DNA of 64,000 bases from Eledone cirrhosa. Taxonomy: Eukaryota. The stretch spans positions 123,628,001 through 123,692,000 of the forward strand of contig OZ024745.1 of NCBI GenBank assembly GCA_964016885.1. The letters are read 5' to 3'. Shown in pieces: positions 18,025 to 34,200 of this stretch. The notes under the pieces are model-generated. The model did not search any database. It was not told the origin of the DNA and saw only the letters and a program-made list of their open reading frames with translations. A program made the position numbers and the translations under genes. Within the stretch, counting starts at the first letter, position 1; every line of letters starts with the position of its first letter.

Positions 18025-18124
<100 letters not shown>

Positions 18125-18425
18125 GTTGAAACAAAATGAAAACGAAATTTCATTTCTCACTCTTAGTATGGCACTTACTTAAATGTAAGTATGCATGTAT
18201 ACGTACATACATATATGTATACAGACGTACAGTAGCATGCACATATATATATATATATATACATATATACATACATATGCATACAGGTACACATACATAT
18301 ATGCACGTATCAGTTTAGCGGCGCTAACGTCGCTTTGTTCGTTTGTAAACAAACTGAACAGCCTGAATTTATGCCATACGGTGTTAAGGCAACCACGTCA
18401 CCTTTTTGTTCAACACTGACACAGG

Positions 18426-18470
18426 AACGATGTACTAGTTTCAAGCTTGTTAGCTATCATCAGCACCGTT
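18426..18470 (-). ncRNA. Type I hammerhead ribozyme, unit 1
   Basis: AACGGUG-CUGAUGA-U-AGCU(AACA)AGCU-U-GAAA-CUAG-UA|CAUCGUU; 7-bp stem I, palindromic ACUAGU stem III; stem I extends over 18408-18494. Confidence 0.82.
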
Positions 18471-18543
18471 TACCCATCTGCCAGATAGTTGAACGTTCGA
18501 AAGTATATACTTTCCTTATGAAAATTAACGGCTGAGCAGCCTA

Positions 18544-18551
18544 ATTTGCAT
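18544..18551 (-). promoter_or_regulatory. Octamer motif ATGCAAAT upstream of the HHR (recurs every 468 bp)
   Basis: Perfect octamer, also kept at 29386-29393 and 55870-55877 at similar distance from CUGAUGA; function inferred. Confidence 0.45.
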
Positions 18552-18893
18552 ATTGAGTGAGTTAAATCGGTCAGGCATACCGAAAACGATAAATTGAAAC
18601 AAAATGAAAACGAAATTTCATTTCTCACTCTTAGTATGGCACTTACTTAAATGTAAGTATGCATGTATACGTACATACATATATGTATACAGACGTACAG
18701 TAGCATGCACATATATATATATATATATACATATATACATACATATGCATACAGGTACACATACATATATGCACGTATCAGTTTAGCGGCGCTAACGTCG
18801 CTTTGTTCGTTTGTAAACAAACTGAACAGCCTGAATTTATGCCATACGGTGTTAAGGCAACCACGTCACCTTTTTGTTCAACACTGACACAGG

Positions 18894-18938
18894 AACGATG
18901 TACTAGTTTCAAGCTTGTTAGCTATCATCAGCACCGTT
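18894..18938 (-). ncRNA. Type I hammerhead ribozyme, unit 2
   Basis: Same sequence as 18426-18470. Confidence 0.82.
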
Positions 18939-19361
18939 TACCCATCTGCCAGATAGTTGAACGTTCGAAAGTATATACTTTCCTTATGAAAATTAACGGC
19001 TGAGCAGCCTAATTTGCATATTGAGTGAGTTAAATCGGTCAGGCATACCGAAAACGATAAATTGAAACAAAATGAAAACGAAATTTCATTTCTCACTCTT
19101 AGTATGGCACTTACTTAAATGTAAGTATGCATGTATACGTACATACATATATGTATACAGACGTACAGTAGCATGCACATATATATATATATATATACAT
19201 ATATACATACATATGCATACAGGTACACATACATATATGCACGTATCAGTTTAGCGGCGCTAACGTCGCTTTGTTCGTTTGTAAACAAACTGAACAGCCT
19301 GAATTTATGCCATACGGTGTTAAGGCAACCACGTCACCTTTTTGTTCAACACTGACACAGG

Positions 19362-19406
19362 AACGATGTACTAGTTTCAAGCTTGTTAGCTATCATCAGC
19401 ACCGTT
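19362..19406 (-). ncRNA. Type I hammerhead ribozyme, unit 3
   Basis: Same sequence as 18426-18470. Confidence 0.82.
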
Positions 19407-19829
19407 TACCCATCTGCCAGATAGTTGAACGTTCGAAAGTATATACTTTCCTTATGAAAATTAACGGCTGAGCAGCCTAATTTGCATATTGAGTGAGTTA
19501 AATCGGTCAGGCATACCGAAAACGATAAATTGAAACAAAATGAAAACGAAATTTCATTTCTCACTCTTAGTATGGCACTTACTTAAATGTAAGTATGCAT
19601 GTATACGTACATACATATATGTATACAGACGTACAGTAGCATGCACATATATATATATATATATACATATATACATACATATGCATACAGGTACACATAC
19701 ATATATGCACGTATCAGTTTAGCGGCGCTAACGTCGCTTTGTTCGTTTGTAAACAAACTGAACAGCCTGAATTTATGCCATACGGTGTTAAGGCAACCAC
19801 GTCACCTTTTTGTTCAACACTGACACAGG

Positions 19830-19874
19830 AACGATGTACTAGTTTCAAGCTTGTTAGCTATCATCAGCACCGTT
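19830..19874 (-). ncRNA. Type I hammerhead ribozyme, unit 4
   Basis: Same sequence as 18426-18470. Confidence 0.82.
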
Positions 19875-20297
19875 TACCCATCTGCCAGATAGTTGAACGT
19901 TCGAAAGTATATACTTTCCTTATGAAAATTAACGGCTGAGCAGCCTAATTTGCATATTGAGTGAGTTAAATCGGTCAGGCATACCGAAAACGATAAATTG
20001 AAACAAAATGAAAACGAAATTTCATTTCTCACTCTTAGTATGGCACTTACTTAAATGTAAGTATGCATGTATACGTACATACATATATGTATACAGACGT
20101 ACAGTAGCATGCACATATATATATATATATATACATATATACATACATATGCATACAGGTACACATACATATATGCACGTATCAGTTTAGCGGCGCTAAC
20201 GTCGCTTTGTTCGTTTGTAAACAAACTGAACAGCCTGAATTTATGCCATACGGTGTTAAGGCAACCACGTCACCTTTTTGTTCAACACTGACACAGG

Positions 20298-20342
20298 AAC
20301 GATGTACTAGTTTCAAGCTTGTTAGCTATCATCAGCACCGTT
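20298..20342 (-). ncRNA. Type I hammerhead ribozyme, unit 5 (partial unit)
   Basis: Same sequence as 18426-18470; the array ends at the edge of the extended stem I. Confidence 0.82.
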
Positions 20343-20367
20343 TACCCATCTGCCAGATAGTTGAACG

Positions 20368-20532
<165 letters not shown>

Positions 20533-26186: not shown

Positions 26187-28945
26187 GGATCAATAAGACA
26201 ATAGAGGTAGTTCGATTTAATAATACAATGATTAAGCTTAGATTAGTTGTAGGCAGGAGACTACTGACAATCATCTCTGCCTATGCTCCCCCAAGCGGGC
26301 CTAGGTAAAGAAGAGGAAGACTGCTTTTACGAGCAACTTTTACAAACAACCGCAATGACAGAGGACGGAGACATCGTTATGCTAGCAGGGGACTTCAATG
26401 GTCATGTTGGTCAGGATGGTTACACTGGGGAACATGGTGGGCACGGTTATGGCTCAAGAAATGAAGAAGGAGTGAGACTTCTTGAATTTTGTGATGCAAG
26501 TACACTAACCATTTGCAACACTAACTTCCAGAAACCTGCCAACCACCTAATAACCTACAAATCAGGCGAGCACATAAGCCAGATTGACTTCTTACTAATT
26601 AGGCAACAGGACAGGCAGATGGTGTCAAATACCAAGGCATACTCTGGGGAAGAATGTACCCCACAGCATAGGTTAGTCGTTAGTGATATCTCAGTAAGCA
26701 AGAGATGGAATGAGACATACAGGAAGGTGTGGAGAAGAAAGGTCTGGAAGCTAAAAGACCTTTCACTAAAATACAAAATTAGAAAAGCCCTTCAAGACGT
26801 GTATGACGAAAAAGAAGACGATTTAGAGTCATATGACATAGATAATAACTGGAATTTCTTACGTGACAACTTACTTCAGGCTACTGATGAAACTTGTGGC
26901 TGGAGCAGAGCTCCAACCAGACAGAGAGTGACCTGGTGGTGGAACAGCACGGTAGATAGGGCCATTAGAGACAAAAGACTAGCATGGACGGCTTGGAAAA
27001 AGGGTGGGAGTAGGGAAGGATATACAGCCGCTAAGAGAGAAGCTAGATGTCAGGTGTATTTAGCACGCACGGAGGCTGAGAGTAGGAGGTTTGCCAATGT
27101 TCTGCGACAGGAAGATCAGAGACGTGTGGTGTTCCACATTGCAAGGCAGTGTAGCAATGCAAATCAGGATGTTGTTGGAGATAAATGTGTCCGGGATGAT
27201 GCCGGTGTACTTAGTGTCACGAATGATCAGAAAAAGGAGGCCTGGAAATGTCATTGTGAGAGACTGATGACTGTGGAGAACGAATGGGAGAGAGAGAAAT
27301 TACCCTCAGTACATCTGACAGAGGGACCAGCTATTGAGATTGACGAATATAGAGGGGTCCAAGAGGCGATTAAGGAAATGAAAAATGGTAAGGCTGCTGG
27401 ACCATCGGGGATAGTTGCTGAGATGCTGAAGGCATCAGGAGACGTAGGCACTAAACTGGTTGCACGCATCATCAATCAGGCTATATATGGTGGTGTCATA
27501 CCCAAAGACTGGTGCAGCAGTATTCTCATAGATTGCTACAAAGGTAAAGGGGATGCTCTGGAGAGGAGCAATTATAGGGGTATAAAACTGATGGATTAGG
27601 TTATGAAAGTGGCAGAAAGGATATTAGCACAACTAATTAGAGAAAGGGTCAAACTAGATGAGATGCAGTTTGGTTTTGTGCCTGGGAAAAGTACAACAGA
27701 TGCCCTCTTCTTGGTGAGACAAATTACCATAGAGGTTCTTAGAGAAGAATAAGCCACTATACTTAGCCTGTGTTGACCTAGAGAAGGCCTTTGATAGGGT
27801 ACCCCGATCTGTCATCTGGTGGTCCCTAAGGAAACTAGGTGTTGAGGAATGGCTTGTGAGGATAGTGCAAACTTTGTACAGAGGTGCTGTCAGTAAAGTC
27901 AGGGAGGAATTCCAGATACAAGTAGGAGTACATCAGGGTTCGGTCCTCAGCCCGCTCTTGTTCATTATAGTCCTCCAAGCCATAACAGAGGAGTTTAAGA
28001 CTGGCTGTCCAGTGGAACTTCTCTATGCTGACGATCTCGTTCTTATGGTAGAATCAGTAGAGGAGCTAGAGAATAAATTCTGGCTATGAAAACAGCAGTT
28101 GGAATAAAGAGGACTGAGAGTGAACCTAGCTAAGACGAAAGTGTTGATGAGTAGAAAAGAGGACAACACACTGATTCCATCAAGGAAATGGCCATGTTCG
28201 ATATGCAGAAAAGGAACTGGCATAAATTCTATAAAATGCACACAATGTAGATCCTGGGTACACAAGAGATGTAGTGGGATAGCAGGCAAACTAAGAGGTA
28301 GGGAGAAATACGTATGCAGTAGATGTACAGGGAAATTAGGCAGTAGAAGTCGCATTGATAGACACATTTTTCAAATGCAGGCGGGTGCTATAGAAGTGGT
28401 CGATTGCTTCTGGTACCTAGGAGATCAGATTAGCATGGGAGGGGGGTGTTCTGAGGCCATAGTATCTCAAATAAGGACAGGTTGGAAGAAGTTTAGGGAG
28501 CTGCTTCCTCTGCTGGCGAAGAAGGGTTTCTCCCTGCATACGAAAAGGCCGGTTATATGATGCCTGTGTGACGAGCATGATGCTGCAGGGTAGTGAGACA
28601 TGGGCAGCAACTGCAGAGGATATGCTACAGCTGGAGAGAAATGAGGCAAGCATACTCCGTAGGAGGTGCAATGTCAATGTGCGTGAACGACCCAGCATGG
28701 ATGTGTTGAGTGAGAAACTGTGTCTGAGAGGGATAGAGAGTAGTGTGCGAGAGAGGAGATTGTGGTGGTATGGACATGTGAGGCGCATGGAGGATGATCG
28801 ATGGGTGTAAAAGTGAGGAAATGCCAGTTGAAGGAAGACATGATAGAAGTAGACCACGCAAAACATGGACGGTGGTGGTGAGAACAGACCTCAGATCGCT
28901 AAAGCTCACGTTGGAGATGACGAAGGACCGTGACAAGTGGACAGA
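26187..28945 (+). pseudogene. RTE-clade LINE ORF (APE endonuclease + reverse transcriptase), truncated at both ends, inactivated
   Basis: GDFNGHVG, QIDF, PQHRLV (APE); KAAGPSG, NYRGIKL, GVHQGSVLSPLLF, YADD at 28024, FWYLG, RRLWWYGHV; stops at 27597, 28088, 28808 plus frameshifts. Confidence 0.95.
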
Positions 28946-29278
28946 AATAGCCGTCGAAACAGCTTAAGCTCTGCCATCGGGGTCTTGAACATTTTCCTAT
29001 ATATATACACACATACATACATATCCTATTCAACCACCATCCAAATTCATTTATTTTTATCAAATCTATGCTCTTCTCTTTTTCTGGTATTAATTTCCAT
29101 AGCCATCTCTTCTTCACATTACAATCCTAACAGATAGCACATAGTTTATGAATCTGCCATTCACAAAAACCTTTTATTGAATCAAGTGCATGTAATAGTA
29201 GCAAAAGAAAAATATCATATAATATAATACAATATATATATATATAAGTATGTATACGTACATACATATATGTATAGA

Positions 29279-29722
29279 CGTATACATACTTATATTTAAG
29301 TATCAGCCGTACTAAGAGTGAGAAATGAAATTTCATTTTTTCCATTTATCGTTTTCGGTACGCCCGACCAACTAACTCACTCGATATGCAAATTAGGCTG
29401 CTCAGCCATTAATATGCATAAGGAAAGTATATACGTTCAAATGTTCAATCAACTGACAGATATACGGTGCTGATGACAGCTAATAAGCTAGAAACTAGTT
29501 CATCGCTCCTTTGTCAGTGTTGAACAAAATGGCAACGATGGTTGCCGAACACTGTACGGCTTAATTCGGGCTGTTTGTTTACAAACAAACCGATCATTAT
29601 AATAAATGTTCGGTAAACCCATACGCACATATATATGTGTGCATATATGTATGTACGTATACATACTTATATTTAAGTATCAGCCATACTAAGAGTGAGA
29701 AATGAAATTTCATTTTTTCCAA
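29279..29722 (+). mobile_element. Diverged ~1.2-mer (377-bp period) relative of the 468-bp HHR repeat
   Basis: Colinear with the reverse complement of the array unit; ~66-bp terminal direct repeat 29279-29344 / 29656-29721; followed by (TA)n. Confidence 0.88.
29465..29505 (+). ncRNA. Type I hammerhead ribozyme
   Basis: CGGUG-CUGAUGA-C-AGCU(AAUA)AGCU-A-GAAA-CUAG-UU|CAUCG; extended stem CUGACAGA/UUUGUCAG and GUUCAA/UUGAAC. Confidence 0.8.
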
Positions 29723-32589
29723 TATATATATAATTTCTAGAAAATTAATTTTCTACCTTCAGATTAATTCAGTAATATTGCTTTGCTAAGGGATACATAA
29801 ATGGTCTGTTTTTCAAAAAAGACCTTTCAGGCATTGTAGTTAAACACAATGAAATTTAAATATTTATTTAACTCCTATAACATCTATTCTCATGTGTTTC
29901 TATAGATGAGAATATAATTGCAAAGTTTGGATACTTGTATATAAAGTATATATGTCTCTGTGTATGTCATCCTTATCTTCATTTAATGTCTGTTTTAAAT
30001 GATCACACACCGCGTGCACAGACATTTGAATGTGTTAATTTTTCTATTAACTACTCAGCTACAAAGTTGAAGTGTTTACTATTTTCAAGTAGAAAGTTTG
30101 TTGCTAGTAAAGTTAATAAGTATTGCCTGTAGTCACAATATATTGTTGTCTAACTCTTGTCTTGTACCAAAATTAATCTGGAATTTTTCTTGACATACAG
30201 ATTTTAAATACATACAATAAGTTCTTTTTTTTTATAATTTGGTAGTCTTATGTGTTGAGGCAACATCTATAACCTTTTTAATCTATGCCCCTCTGTTAGA
30301 TGCTAGAAGTTAATCCTTTTGATACCAAACTGCCTGAAACCACCCATGATTGTACAATACACAGCTGTTTCTTTTAAAATATTTATATCTTTTTGAAACC
30401 TTCTATCATAATTTCGAATTTCATTCACAAGACATTGTAAAACCAGCTCAGAAAGGTGTCCTATGGTTGTATAAACTTCCTGATTCTTTCAGTCAGTGAA
30501 ATGATCAGTGGCAAAGATAGAGAACTACCAGTTCATTATTTTAAAATCCATATCAACAGAGACATTCCTTTGTAACCCTAGACATTACAATGTTATATTT
30601 ATAGATCACTTCATCTAACTGTGAAGGTGTCTGGCCTAGTGGTTGTTTTACTTATAATCACATGTTTGTGCATTAAATTCCAATAGCTAGCACCATCTTG
30701 CATCGAAGAACAAGAAACCTCATTTCATGCTGTTCTAGCCCACTCAGCTGGGGATGGGGGGGGGGAGGGGAGTATCAGCAGCAGCTAGATGTTATCCCTT
30801 TCTTAGACAAGTCGCCTGCTCAGGGCAAAATTCTTATACTCTGTCGTTCAACAGCAAAAAATCTGGGATATGCCTTGGCTTAGGAATCACATTAACTCTT
30901 TTCTTTCCCTATTTCTAAAGAAAGACACTGCCTATGATTTTCAATTAATTTTGAAAATAATTAGGAATTTGGTAGGATTTAATAATATAAAATCAATTTT
31001 CTCTTATATGTCTAGTGTTTAGAATACACCTCAACAAAAGGTCTATACATGAAATTATGAAAGGTTTTAAAACAAATAGTTTTCTACAAAAGAAATAACA
31101 TCCCTATAACTGTAGTTTTAAAAGGACCTGTAGAAGGAACATGATGATGATGATGATATTGCTGAGCTGTAGTTTGAAACCATTCTTGAAAATATGGAAT
31201 AGTCCCTGATACTTTCCCAGGGAAAATTTTTCATTTTCATCTCACATCATTATTTCTGTTGTAAAATATTAAGGATGCTGTTTCAAATATTAAAATTGTT
31301 CCTCTTACAACATCAACTCTTTTTTTGTTGTGTTGTTGCTGTTGTTATTATTATTATTATTATTAATGATAAAAATAATAATATTTTGCTGGTTTCATTC
31401 CTCATATTAAATTTGATAATGGCTTGCAGAAATAAACTGGATAAAAAAAAAGTTTGTTATAAATAGCAAAAAGGATATTTTGCATAAAAACACATTGACA
31501 GCATATCATTTTCATTTTATTTTTTTCAAAAATGTTCATAAAAAATTTCCTTTGAATAAATATTTTTTCTATTCCTTCTCTGATTCTATTGTTCCACTTT
31601 TATTTTCCCTACCACTTATATATCATGTAAGCATTTAAAAACTATTTGTGCTGGAAACAGATTTTGTGGAACATATATATATATATTTTGAAATTTAGCA
31701 AATATTCTCAGTGCATCTCTTATAACAGCATTCTTTTTAAACTTTATATTTCAACTGGATGGGGTGGATAGTGATAAAGGGATAAAATAATATTGATATT
31801 GTGATGACAAAAAAAAGACAAAAGAGTGTACAAAAATAAAAATGTTAGTTAAATGGAGATGAAGGAGTTGGAGTTTATTAAAATAGAGTGGAGAAACAAA
31901 ATCGAACACAATAATACATAAAATATATATAAAATAGCTGAGGTTTAGTTTTGTTTCAAGATAAAATAGAATTGATGAGTATTTCCTGTGGTAATATTTC
32001 AGTTTAATGGAGCAACTTCCTGCTGCAATTTATGACTGTTCCTCTTTTAAAGTTAAAATACAATAAAACGAAATGGAAAGATCTACCAATGGTAGTGGCC
32101 ATGTCTATTGTACATTGTTATTTTCTTTGCAATTGAAAATTGAAATGTAGCAAAAACATATTTTTAAAATTATTTTAAGAATTAGCTAAATTATTTAACA
32201 AAAAAAAAAGGTGAAAATAAATAAAAAGAAAATACAATTTAAAATTGAGTTGTTTTTAATAAATCACAAACTGGAAGTTAATTTCATTCTTGAGCTGTGT
32301 ATGGATATATGGGTTTTTCTCTATTTCTCACAACTTTTATCCCTCTTTTCTCTTATCTGTATATTTCTCTTTAAGTCCCTCCCTTTCTGTTCATGTGATA
32401 TATGCATGTGTATTAAATCTGGAGGTACCTCTAATGAAATTACAGCACTTAGAGTAAGAATGTGCTGGAAGGATTTCAAAATACTATTATCATTGTTGAT
32501 AAGAAACTTCTGCAATAATCTGCGTGCATGAAACATAACATGTGGTATAGTATGGGACTGAAAGGTGGTTCTTGATTGTAGAAAAATGA

Positions 32590-32897
32590 GCTTACTAATA
32601 ATTTTGTGTGGAAACCACCCCCTGCATATTCGCAGAATCGTAAATATCCTCCACAATTTTTTTTTATGGCTTTTTTCTTGGCATTATATATATTTTTAAC
32701 ACTAAATTATTAATAACAATATACTGTATTTGCTGGCCTATTGGACTTCGCATAAGAGGTTCCCTCTTTTTTTATTATATTTTACGTTATAGTTTGACGT
32801 TTATAGGCATTTTTATGGACCACGTCCAATGTTTGCGGTTTTTCACTCTTTGTGAGTGCTCTACGAATATAACCCCTGTGAATACTGAGGAACTACT
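32590..32897. mobile_element. Partial copy of the 40252-40612 MITE
   Basis: Colinear similarity (CTGCATATTCG..GAATC.TAAATATC; ATGGACCAC.TCCAAT; ACCCCT.TGAATAC). Confidence 0.8.
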
Positions 32898-33056
32898 ACT
32901 TTTAATTTGGGCCTCAGAATAGCTTCCACAATTTAATTGTCAAGTTTTACTACCATGCAACTTAAACTCGCATTTTTATATAATCTTTGATTCTTGTACT
33001 GCTAATAGTTTGATCCCTAGAAAAAGAGCAAAACAAAGACCAACAGAGCAGTTTAA

Positions 33057-33274
33057 CCCTTTAGCATTTACATTACTTTATATTGACTATTATATTTTTG
33101 TGGTAAAGGCTTTACCTCCCATAATTATCTCACACAATATCAAATCTATGAGCTTTTGATATTTATTTTGAGAACAGTACCTTAACATCAGTATGAGCAC
33201 CCAGTTATGGCTGGTTTAAGCAGAAAGAGGTGAGAGAATACTGGCCGGATACAACCGGTTTAAATGCTAATGGG
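33057..33274. mobile_element. piggyBac-like MITE family A
   Basis: TTAA|CCCTTTAGCATTTA ... TAAATGCTAATGGG. Confidence 0.88.
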
Positions 33275-33469
33275 TTGAACCAAATGTTAAATATATTTAT
33301 CATGTGGTATTGTATTTAGGCTCCTTCTTACCAGCAGCAGTAAACTCTGGACACTGTTCTCTGTCTGTATCAGTTTTCGTACATCCGCCTACATTACTAA
33401 TGAGATCTAGATTGCAAGGACTTTCTACTACTTCCTGTGAAACTTCTGAACATCTGAAACAGTTTCTCT

Positions 33470-34200
33470 TGAGTATCCTTATTGTTGACTACTTCTGTGC
33501 ATCTACCACACACAAAGTCTACTCTTGTAGTTAGTTTCCACTGGGTACACTCTATGGAATTGCTACCACTCTTTACACTGCAGGCCCTTGATTCGAGATT
33601 TTGGTTCCATATCTGTAACTTCTTTTTTAGTTCTATTATTTTCCATATAAGGGCTACATCATCAGCATATAGGAGCTCCCACAGTCAACCAGTCTTGAAT
33701 TCCTCTATTATGTCCCGGAGTGGACTGATGACTATACCTTGGTGGGCCCCCACCTGCGCATTAAACTCATTGCTGTACACATTACCAACTCGTACCTTGC
33801 TGGTTGCACTTCCTGACGTAGCCAGTACAACTCTTCCAAGCCATTTTTCTATCATAACTTCCTAAGCAACTGATAAATTACAAGGCATGGGATTCTGTCA
33901 GAGGCCATGAATGCAAGATATAGGGGCTTATTCTTAGCATAATGCACCTCATGCAACTATCTAACTAGGAAGATGGCACCCATAGTGCCTCTATTGGACA
34001 CAAAATCTGATTACTTATGTTCCTAATTAGTTATGCAGTAATCCTTTCTGTGACCATCATAACTTGTTCCAACGGTTTCATATCTAAGTAATTTGCTCTC
34101 TCTAGTCCATCTCCTTTGAAGAAGTTGACAATGCTGCTGCTACATGAGTCATTGAGTATGACACCTTCCTGACTACCTGATTAACTGTGTGTGTGACTTA
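33470..34200 (-). pseudogene. Decayed RTE reverse transcriptase fragment
   Basis: Minus translation EEFKTG*LWELLYADDVAL near 33650-33705; parallels the 27.4-28.2 kb region. Confidence 0.8.

What the first reader, a model, noticed from the sequence alone, without database searches (positions are those of the whole stretch)
29279..29722. Diverged sister subfamily (377-bp period) preserves the ribozyme fold and the same 3' endpoint
Seen: opposite orientation to the array, ~1.2 units long. Core, AGCU/AGCU stem II and the ACUAGU palindrome are kept. Changes fall in the loop (AACA to AAUA), at N17 (GUA to GUU) and as a G-U to A-U swap in the outer stem (CUGGCA to CUGACA against UGUCAG). Both subfamilies end after ...GAGTGAGAAATGAAATTTC...TTYCAA and run into (TA)n, while their 5' ends differ. 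Inference: selection on RNA structure, and reverse transcription primed from a fixed 3' end at (TA)n targets.
Basis: partly seen in the sequence, partly recalled or inferred. Interest (0 to 1): 0.72.

Follow-up and report, generated by a model that had tools for sequence, protein, structure and literature searches.

The report
Hammerhead retrozyme copy in TA repeat
This is one slightly decayed copy of a small non-coding repeat, present about 25,000 times in this animal genome, that carries a hammerhead ribozyme motif predicted to cut its own RNA and was likely written into a TA repeat by the enzymes of a Penelope-type jumping gene; the kind is known, so it is an instructive but ordinary example.

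Summary
Window 29242-29722 is a 5'-truncated insertion of a hammerhead-bearing repeat, related (about 77-86% by region) to the 468-bp array at 18126-20375 on the other strand. The ribozyme core, helix II and the ACUAGU palindrome are kept. Between three subfamily representatives 0 of 9 core, 4 of 52 paired (all still pairing) and 12 of 28 unpaired positions differ.

The family is large: 24,899 exact ribozyme motifs and 26,824 tail motifs in the genome. In a positional sample, 18 of 18 terminal tails run into (TA)n at one place. There is also a second fixed endpoint about 50 bases upstream. Head-to-head insertions use one of each, as does a co-resident RT plus GIY-YIG Penelope-like element. The finding's own copy is such a two-armed insertion. 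A sense-strand A>G excess points to an RNA intermediate.

It is a new member of the known animal non-LTR retrozymes, and this scan had already found the same families elsewhere in this genome. Self-cleavage, circles and the mobilising enzyme remain untested; no RNA run was available.

The parts
29232..29245 (.). left flank: short (TA)n run into which the left arm ends
   Evidence: sequence; alignment shows the left arm turning into TA repeats here
29242..29272 (-). short inverted left arm (31 bases) of the same element, ending at the upstream fixed endpoint ('site 1', ...CATACTTATAT|(TA)n)
   Evidence: 35-base palindrome with no spacer (I2); reverse complement matches the internal unit over 31 bases and then runs into TA repeats
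29262..29347 (+). partial first unit of the right arm (profile positions about 340-422: TA-rich part, tail with first copy of the anchor at 29316-29334)
   Evidence: (D1)
29350..29722 (+). one full unit (profile 1-420); lacks about 41 bases of the variable TA-rich part and 4 bases of loop 1, hence 377 bp
   Evidence: nhmmer with a profile of 28 units, score 396 bits
29443..29525 (+). type-I hammerhead motif: helix I in three segments (29443-29449/29519-29525, 29453-29458/29512-29517, 29464-29469/29501-29506 with an A.C mismatch at 29506), core CUGAUGA 29470-29476, helix II AGCU/AGCU 29478-29489 flanked by C.A (29477, 29490), GAA 29491-29493, helix III palindrome ACUAGU 29494-29499, U17 29500; predicted cleavage between 29500 and 29501
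   Evidence: sequence; weak Rfam HH9 match 22.3 bits, E 0.001, below the gathering score 52; fold z -4.46; pair counts
29384..29432 (+). conserved ATGCAAAT octamer-like word and GTATATAC TATA-like word upstream of the ribozyme; possible internal promoter (inferred only)
   Evidence: sequence, kept in both subfamilies
29673..29722 (+). about 50-base 'tail' between the two fixed 3' endpoints; holds the anchor GAGTGAGAAATGAAATTTC (29693-29711) and a perfect 16-base palindrome AAATGAAATTTCATTT
   Evidence: (I8)
29723..29733 (.). right flank: short (TA)n run after the downstream fixed endpoint ('site 2')
   Evidence: sequence
18126..20375 (-). the comparison array: 4.8 identical 468-bp units of a sister subfamily with five hammerhead motifs, 5' end at profile position about 85, 3' end at site 2
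18031..18124 (.). (AT)47 at the 3' side of the array
20368..20532 (.). (TA)82 at the 5' side of the array

Best explanation
Window 29242-29722 is a two-armed, 5'-truncated insertion of a non-coding tandem-repeat element with one hammerhead-ribozyme motif, of the animal 'non-LTR retrozyme' kind, and it was likely copied from RNA into a (TA)n microsatellite by the reverse transcriptase and GIY-YIG endonuclease of a Penelope-like element. Shown: the element's anatomy, its copy number, the ribozyme core and helices kept across subfamilies, two fixed 3' endpoints at TA repeats, scattered 5' ends, head-to-head arms, the same geometry in a co-resident coding Penelope-like element, and a strand-asymmetric A>G excess. 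Inferred: arrays are transcribed (each unit carries an octamer-like and a TATA-like word). The hammerheads, whose helix III is one base pair plus a palindromic loop, would pair two by two and cut the multimer into units. The units would be closed into circles by a host ligase. The endonuclease would cut a (TA)n target, and each 3' DNA end would prime on a U/A-rich site of the RNA (...CUUAUAU or ...CAUUUAU). Copying round a circle or along a multimer would give a partial unit followed by whole units. This particular copy has a single ribozyme with a mismatch in helix I, so it is probably a dead end.
For: Ribozyme: all core residues are present (CUGAUGA, GAA, A15.1, U16.1, H17), with a 6-bp proximal helix I, a 4-bp helix II and a 1-bp helix III with palindromic loop. 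That is the architecture described for metazoan type-I hammerheads (PMC4209133, passages read). 24,899 exact motifs in the genome, reversed control 0. Constraint: 0/9 core, 4/52 paired (all still pairing) and 12/28 unpaired positions vary among three representatives; 90.5% of 1623 pair cells are standard pairs. Insertion: 18/18 terminal tails end in TA repeats at one place. Of 51 arms in 31 merged loci, 22 end at site 2, 16 at site 1, 12 elsewhere and 1 at a locus edge. Of 16 head-to-head pairs, 7 are site 1 plus site 2 and none uses the same site twice. Partner: 10,595 first-look GIY-YIG candidates, 150 of 150 scored over the Pfam cut-off. ORFs carry RVT_1 then GIY-YIG. A hammerhead of like build (U.U at the base of helix II, A-GUAC-U helix III) lies in their 3' region and occurs 5,579 times. 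Of 30 such copies, 13 have a short 3' end, 14 a long one about 45-50 bases further and 3 something else, mostly into TA repeats; 3 of 5 head-to-head pairs are short plus long (tallied by eye). RNA intermediate: A>G 76 against T>C 42 (p 0.002), with G>A 112 against C>T 108, over 117 copies. Two inverted arms share 17 derived sites, 12 of them A>G. Literature: tails at one end only, inverted 5'-truncated copies, partial tandems and (TA)n bias are described for Penelope-like elements (PMC8557442, passages). Retrozymes are proposed to be their passengers (PMC7229834 Results and Discussion; preprint 10.64898/2026.07.22.740005 Results and Discussion).
Against: No activity or RNA evidence: no RNA run held the sequence. 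Rfam does not call the motif (0 hits at gathering; 22.3 bits against 52). The 10.1-11.1 pair is C.A or U.U in 56 of 58 distinct copies rather than the usual G-C. The hammerhead fold is not the predicted minimum-energy fold (-21.9 against -29.1 kcal/mol). Neither the 3' nor the 5' ends of insertions fall at the predicted cleavage site (profile 154/155), so cut linear units are not the template. A circle is not distinguished from an uncut multimer. No coding element sharing this repeat's sequence was found in the 20 Penelope-like loci examined, so the partner is inferred from geometry only. The loci were chosen by exact tail or ribozyme words, which biases end counts towards site 2.
Confidence: 0.85

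Rival explanations
1. The hammerhead motif is conserved but self-cleavage plays no part in copying. The template is an uncut read-through transcript of an array, and the motif is kept for another reason (for example recognition by the reverse transcriptase) or simply rides along.
For: Insertion ends never coincide with the predicted cleavage site. Both fixed 3' endpoints lie 220-270 bases downstream of it. The base of helix II is mismatched. Penelope-like clades without hammerheads proliferate well, and the authors raise the idea that hammerheads merely parasitise these elements (PMC8557442, passage read).
Against: Substitutions between subfamilies avoid exactly the catalytic core and keep all helices. 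The variable positions are N7, loop 2 and H17, where the motif allows any or several bases, plus the 10.1/11.1 position, which is usually G-C. An axolotl retrozyme hammerhead with a U.U at the base of helix II does cleave, better as a dimer (PMC7229834, Results read).
Confidence: 0.1
2. A SINE-like passenger of a LINE (non-Penelope) reverse transcriptase that uses TA-repeat tails.
For: A degraded LINE-like ORF lies 350 bases upstream of the copy (26268-27599, weak Exo_endo_phos_2 match). Fixed 3' ends and 5' truncation are also typical of LINE-driven copying.
Against: Head-to-head arms with a roughly 50-base tail at only one end, and the same two-endpoint geometry in the RT plus GIY-YIG elements of this genome, fit Penelope-like elements. 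TA repeats lie on both sides of many insertions, so they are the target and not a tail.
Confidence: 0.04
3. Ordinary satellite DNA spread by unequal crossing-over and segmental duplication; the hammerhead-like motif is a coincidence.
For: Tandem arrangement; Rfam gives no match at gathering level.
Against: Tens of thousands of dispersed copies on many contigs, with defined ends and scattered truncation points. A strand-asymmetric A>G excess. The reversed control patterns occur 0 times.
Confidence: 0.01

Closest known systems
Metazoan non-LTR retrozymes (Cervera and de la Pena 2020, PMC7229834; Li, Clavereau and Pollet 2026 preprint, 10.64898/2026.07.22.740005)
   Same: Non-coding tandem repeats of about 170-450 bp, each with a type-I hammerhead. 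No LTR. G+C below 50% (about 38% here, from the base counts). Thousands of dispersed copies. Coexistence with Penelope-like elements.
   Different: Expression as linear and circular RNA is not shown here. The sections I read do not describe fixed 3' endpoints at (TA)n, two alternative endpoints, or editing-like A>G scars. The sequence family is specific to this genome.
Newt satellite 2 and axolotl HHR_Amex1 / HHR_Amex2 hammerheads (described in PMC7229834)
   Same: Helix III of one base pair capped by a palindromic tetraloop (Amex1 type), and a mismatch at the base of helix II (U.U in Amex2 and in the array type here). Both are expected to work as dimers.
   Different: The copy in the finding has C.A instead of U.U at that position and U instead of A at position 17. 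No sequence relation was tested.
Penelope-like elements and their pseudo-LTR hammerheads (Cervera and de la Pena 2014, PMC4209133; Craig et al. 2021, PMC8557442)
   Same: 5' truncation, partial tandems, an adjacent inverted 5'-truncated copy, a short tail at one end only, TA-microsatellite targets, and a hammerhead near the 3' end.
   Different: This repeat encodes no RT or endonuclease. It shares no detectable sequence with the 20 coding loci examined. Its tail is about 50 bases rather than the 30-40 quoted.
Plant LTR retrozymes (Cervera et al. 2016, PMC4918200; seen only in the search listing)
   Same: Non-autonomous elements with hammerheads, proposed to spread through circular RNA.
   Different: The plant elements have LTRs, type-III hammerheads and Gypsy-type partners (as summarised in PMC7229834).

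Membership tests
Hammerhead ribozyme, type I | Conserved core C3 U4 G5 A6 N7 G8 A9, G12 A13 A14, A15.1-U16.1, H17 (numbering recalled; consistent with PMC4209133 passages) | tested here: met
   CUGAUGA ... GAA A..U U at 29470-29500; 0 of 9 core positions vary among three subfamily representatives
Hammerhead ribozyme, type I | Three helices around the core, helix I open (type I topology) | tested here: met
   28 proposed pairs, 90.5% of 1623 cells standard pairs against 22-43% when partners are slid. The structure was derived from these sequences, which favours it.
Hammerhead ribozyme, type I | G10.1-C11.1 pair at the base of helix II (highly conserved, not absolute) | tested here: not met
   C.A in this copy, U.U in the array; 56 of 58 distinct copies have no standard pair there
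Hammerhead ribozyme, type I | Score above the Rfam gathering threshold of a hammerhead model | tested here: not met
   0 matches at gathering; HH9 22.3 bits against 52
Hammerhead ribozyme, type I | Site-specific self-cleavage | not testable with these tools
   needs transcription of monomer and dimer constructs
Animal non-LTR retrozyme | Short non-coding tandem repeats, each unit with a type-I hammerhead, without LTR, in many dispersed copies | tested here: met
   no ORF of 130 aa or more over 28891-33472. This copy has 1.27 units and one motif; the array has five.
Animal non-LTR retrozyme | Transcribed and processed to unit-length linear and circular RNA | not testable with these tools
   no RNA holder listed
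Animal non-LTR retrozyme | Coexistence with autonomous Penelope-like elements | tested here: met
Penelope-like insertion signature | 5' truncation, partial tandems, adjacent inverted 5'-truncated copy | tested here: met
   in this copy
Penelope-like insertion signature | [quoted passage not shown] | tested here: met
   7 of 16 head-to-head pairs are site 1 plus site 2, none same-site, 9 involve other ends or a locus edge. This copy: left arm site 1, right arm site 2.
Penelope-like insertion signature | Microsatellite (TA)n target | tested here: met
   18/18 terminal tails; 16 of 22 site-2 ends and all 16 site-1 ends (the latter by definition) are followed by TA-rich sequence; TA repeats on both sides of the array
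Penelope-like element (autonomous) | ORF with reverse transcriptase and GIY-YIG endonuclease | tested here: not met
   no such ORF in the unit; it is therefore a passenger, not a member

The most novel reading that the evidence does not exclude
This repeat and a coding Penelope-like element of the same genome share an unusual insertion geometry: TA-repeat targets, two fixed start sites about 50 bases apart, and one of each in head-to-head insertions. Two opposed arms also carry the same editing-like A>G changes. Together these would be the first sequence-level demonstration that Penelope enzymes copy retrozyme RNA, priming from both ends of one DNA break on a single RNA molecule, probably a circle.
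Probability: 0.5. Interest if true: 0.7.

Novelty: new member of a known kind. Interest (0 to 1): 0.42.

Why it matters
How animal retrozymes move is still open; the two papers read here propose Penelope-like elements as drivers but call the mechanism unresolved. This genome offers tens of thousands of young copies with sharply defined ends. That makes the start sites of reverse transcription, the target and the one-molecule origin of two-armed insertions readable from DNA alone. It also names a concrete pair (this repeat and the RT/GIY-YIG element with a hammerhead of like build) for a mobilisation assay. For the window itself the finding is annotation: a dead, single-ribozyme copy in an intergenic TA repeat.

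Tried and rejected
Rfam at gathering level found nothing in the window. In E-value mode the many microRNA-like hits (mir-297 and others) fall on TA/TG-rich low-complexity sequence far below their thresholds, and I disregard them.

RNA evidence: no RNA holder was listed for the array unit. Laying 29345-29615 gave only contigs, which cannot show RNA ends. X1 held thousands of family contigs, X5 held eight, and X4 and X6 held none, which is no proof of absence.

Partner by sequence: blastn of both units against 12 GIY-YIG loci gave only TA-rich low-complexity matches. Eight longer loci had other hammerhead-like motifs but not this repeat. A DNA search with the 3' region of the coding element returned nothing, not even itself, so it is uninformative; a pattern search replaced it.

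Thermodynamic folding does not return the hammerhead fold as the minimum, and homodimer folding is uninformative because the region is largely self-complementary.

Per-block conservation over 119 copies is nearly flat (0.86-0.98) and biased by how the loci were chosen, so I did not use it.

I looked for a cluster of 5' ends at the cleavage site and found none: 2 of about 45 ends lie within 8 bases (by eye).

R-scape was not available; the count of structure pairs was used instead.

A literature search for retrozymes with microsatellite or target-primed insertion, and one for hammerheads in cephalopods, gave no paper describing this family. I did not establish the organism.

Full report
WHAT IS THERE. 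The stretch named in the finding is a real repeat. A 101-base segment at 29244-29344 recurs at 29621-29721, 377 bases on. I built a profile from 28 full units taken from elsewhere in the genome. It places one full unit at 29350-29722 and a partial unit at 29251-29347, both on the + strand. It also places 4.8 units at 18135-20375 on the - strand. That second block is the 468-bp array, whose units are 100% alike.

The two elements are related but distinct. By region, they are 89% identical in the first 92 positions, 86% over the ribozyme, 66% in the middle part and 80% in the tail. Both are flanked by TA repeats. The array has (TA)82 and (AT)47. The sister copy has short runs at 29232-29245 and 29723-29733.

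THE RIBOZYME MOTIF. At 29443-29525 the + strand reads GUUCAAU..CUGACA..ACGGUG CUGAUGA C AGCU AAUA AGCU A GAA ACUAGU U|CAUCGC..UGUCAG.GUUGAAC. This has every conserved hammerhead residue:
- a six-pair proximal helix I, continued by two outer helices;
- a four-pair helix II;
- a helix III that is only A-U closing the palindromic loop CUAG.

Cervera and de la Pena (PMC4209133, passages read) describe exactly this build for most metazoan type-I hammerheads. They say such motifs cut poorly alone and well as dimers.

Rfam does not call the motif. There are no hits at gathering level. In a small search, HH9 scores 22.3 bits against a threshold of 52, with E 0.001. The region folds better than all 200 shuffles (z -4.46; -3.41 for the array copy). 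The hammerhead fold itself is 7 kcal/mol above the predicted minimum. That is uninformative for a motif relying on tertiary contacts or dimerisation.

Window copy against array type shows:
- 0 of 9 core positions changed;
- 4 of 52 paired positions changed;
- 13 of 28 unpaired positions changed.

The unpaired changes include the positions flanking helix II (U.U in the array, C.A here) and a four-base deletion in loop 1. Of the four paired changes, two keep the pair (C-G to U.G, G.U to A-U). One is an alignment artefact of the deletion. One, C at 29506, breaks A-U 2.6-1.6. That C is private to this copy: nearly all family contigs of run X1 read T there.

IS THE RNA STRUCTURE UNDER SELECTION? 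Decayed copies say little, so I compared subfamilies. I sampled 202 motif hits in 90 loci, which gave 81 distinct sequences. Of these, 58 had both outer strands and 23 were dropped as truncated or too diverged. At least three ribozyme types occur. They differ at N7 (U or C), loop 2 (AAUA or AACA), 10.1/11.1 (C.A or U.U), N17 (U or A) and loop 1.

Among three copies that I chose as typical of these types, 0 of 9 core, 4 of 52 paired (all four still pairing) and 12 of 28 unpaired positions vary (Fisher p about 1e-4).

True covariation is thin. Only pair 2.3-1.3 changes on both sides: G.U 42, U.G 8, A-U 2, C-G 1, unpaired 5 of 58. This drives the excess over shuffles (12 cells against 5.1; 0 of 500 shuffles reach it). 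The tool warns that related sequences can produce such an excess without structure, and this is probably one inherited event. The helices were also defined on these same sequences.

The ribozyme region as a whole is no better conserved than its surroundings. The signal lies in where the changes fall. I read this as real but modest evidence for selection on a working hammerhead in the founder copies.

THE FAMILY. The 19-base tail word occurs 26,824 times in the 3.0-Gb genome, and a 33-base degenerate ribozyme pattern 24,899 times. Reversed controls give 0. Of the first 100 ribozyme matches listed, only 1 is of the sister type, so intact copies of that type are a minority. Copies resembling the sister unit are 84-94% identical to it, so it belongs to an older layer. 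Its 377-bp period is private; others of its type have 405-431 bp.

ENDS. In the 30 loci returned for the first 10 Mb of contig 1, chosen only by the tail word, there are 33 distinct tails. Fifteen continue into the next unit (...TTATCGTTTTCGG). Eighteen are terminal, and all 18 pass into TA repeats within a few bases of the same point.

I then placed the unit profile on 31 merged loci (102 kb; chosen by exact tail or ribozyme word, which favours tail-bearing ends). This gave 51 arms:
- 22 end at this point ('site 2', profile position 414 or later);
- 16 end about 50 bases upstream at ...CATACTTATAT, directly into TA repeats with no tail following ('site 1');
- 12 end elsewhere;
- 1 runs off a locus.

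5' ends are scattered from profile position 1 to 351, with no cluster at the predicted cleavage site (154/155).

Sixteen arm pairs lie head to head. Seven combine site 1 with site 2, none uses one site twice, and the other nine involve other ends or a locus edge.

The copy in the finding is itself of this kind. The reverse complement of 29242-29272 matches the internal unit for 31 bases and then turns into TA repeats exactly at site 1. The long right arm ends at site 2.

TA repeats often lie on both sides, so they are the target and not merely a tail.

WHO COPIES IT. The genome is rich in Penelope-like elements. There are 10,595 first-look GIY-YIG candidates, and 150 of 150 scored pass the Pfam cut-off. 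Long ORFs carry RVT_1 followed by GIY-YIG.

One such family has, about 400 bases after its stop codon, a hammerhead of the same build: GAAC CUGAAGA U UGC GAAA GCA U GAA AGUACU U|GUUC. It has U.U at the base of helix II and a one-pair helix III with palindromic loop (my reading of the sequence). This motif occurs 5,579 times.

I examined 30 of its copies by eye:
- 13 end at ...TTATTAATATA;
- 14 end about 45-50 bases further on;
- 3 end otherwise.

Most run into TA repeats. Of 5 head-to-head pairs, 3 are short plus long and none is same-type.

Craig et al. (PMC8557442, passages read) describe 5' truncation, partial tandems, an adjacent inverted truncated copy, a 30-40-bp tail often at one end only, and TA-microsatellite bias as hallmarks of these elements. 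The repeat therefore carries the footprint of the Penelope machinery. I found no coding element sharing its sequence in the 20 loci I looked at, so the link is by geometry only.

AN RNA INTERMEDIATE. Two head-to-head arms at contig 1, 4.53 Mb, carry 25 and 21 derived changes. Seventeen of these sit at the same positions, and 12 of those are A>G on each arm's own sense strand.

In the other 117 copies, A>G outnumbers T>C by 76 to 42 (p 0.002). G>A and C>T are equal (112 and 108), and A and T are equally frequent. DNA mutation should be strand-symmetric. The excess fits adenosine deamination of the sense RNA before reverse transcription. The shared sites show that both arms came from one molecule, or one arm from the other.

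MECHANISM: SHOWN AND INFERRED. Shown:
- the anatomy and the numbers;
- the constraint pattern;
- the two endpoints and the TA targets;
- the arm geometry and its match to a coding Penelope-like element;
- the A>G asymmetry.

Inferred:
- transcription, perhaps from the conserved ATGCAAAT and GTATATAC words upstream of the ribozyme;
- dimer-dependent self-cleavage and ligation to circles;
- priming of both 3' ends of a cut TA repeat on the U/A-rich sites, each offering a few bases of complementarity;
- copying round a circle.

The 4.8 identical units of the array fit a circle, but also a very young multimer copy. Because no end falls at the cleavage site, cut linear units are not the template. 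This copy has one ribozyme and a broken pair, so it can hardly produce unit-length RNA.

COMPARISON AND NOVELTY. The element fits the animal non-LTR retrozymes of Cervera and de la Pena (PMC7229834; Results parts 1-2 and Discussion read) and of Li, Clavereau and Pollet (preprint; Results part 1 of 2 and Discussion read). Its hammerhead fits the amphibian types, one of which also has a U.U at the base of helix II and cleaves mainly as a dimer. It fails two soft hammerhead criteria (G10.1-C11.1 and the Rfam threshold), and activity is untested.

The sections read propose Penelope-like elements as drivers. They do not describe fixed endpoints at TA repeats. Searches for such a description found none, though supplements were not seen.

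The same families (units of 467/468 and 422 bases) had already been reported by this scan on other DNA of this genome, with the same reading. Verdict: a new member of a known kind.

Noticed in passing
G000 contig 1, 4530122-4533140 (loci L044, merged): Two head-to-head arms share 17 derived changes at the same unit positions, 12 of them A>G on each arm's sense strand. This looks like a hyperedited RNA copied into both arms.
   Followed up: yes
loci L076, L077, L080 and L111-L140: A coding Penelope-like family (RVT_1 plus GIY-YIG) has its own small hammerhead (5,579 exact copies), two alternative 3' ends about 45-50 bases apart, and TA, CT or TATC repeats beyond them.
   Followed up: partly
L003, L018, L031, L036/L083, L082, L112 (next to TA repeats): Another repeat, beginning or ending with a word like AACGAAGGAAATGTGGTAAGGAACCAG, abuts the same TA repeats as the retrozyme ends in several loci. 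It is possibly a further TA-targeting element.
   Followed up: no
unit profile positions about 218-242 (window 29573-29590, GTTTGTTTACAAAC): Eight of about 45 arm 5' ends fall at this internal palindrome, including one pair with both arms starting at position 222. Other junctions sit at ACTAGT or TACGTA. Junctions of opposed arms may form by pairing at palindromes.
   Followed up: partly
window 29384-29393 and 29424-29432; same in each array unit: An octamer-like ATGCAAAT and a TATA-like GTATATAC lie 85 and 45 bases upstream of the ribozyme core and are kept in both subfamilies. The array's 5' end lies just after the TATA-like word. Possible internal promoter.
   Followed up: no
window 26268-27599 and 28108-28560: A degraded LINE-like ORF (weak endonuclease-reverse transcriptase match) and a PHD-finger ORF lie just upstream of the copy.
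   Followed up: no
window 18126-18700 (array unit): Its 31-base words are held at shares of 0.34-0.98 by public runs filed under 15 coded organisms plus one wastewater metagenome, in 15 studies. None is on record as RNA. The relatedness of these organisms is unknown.
   Followed up: partly
window 18199-18310 and repeats; 29238-29299: mir-297, mir-466 and mir-1277-like Rfam hits far below threshold on the TA/TG-rich part of each unit; low-complexity artefacts.
   Followed up: no
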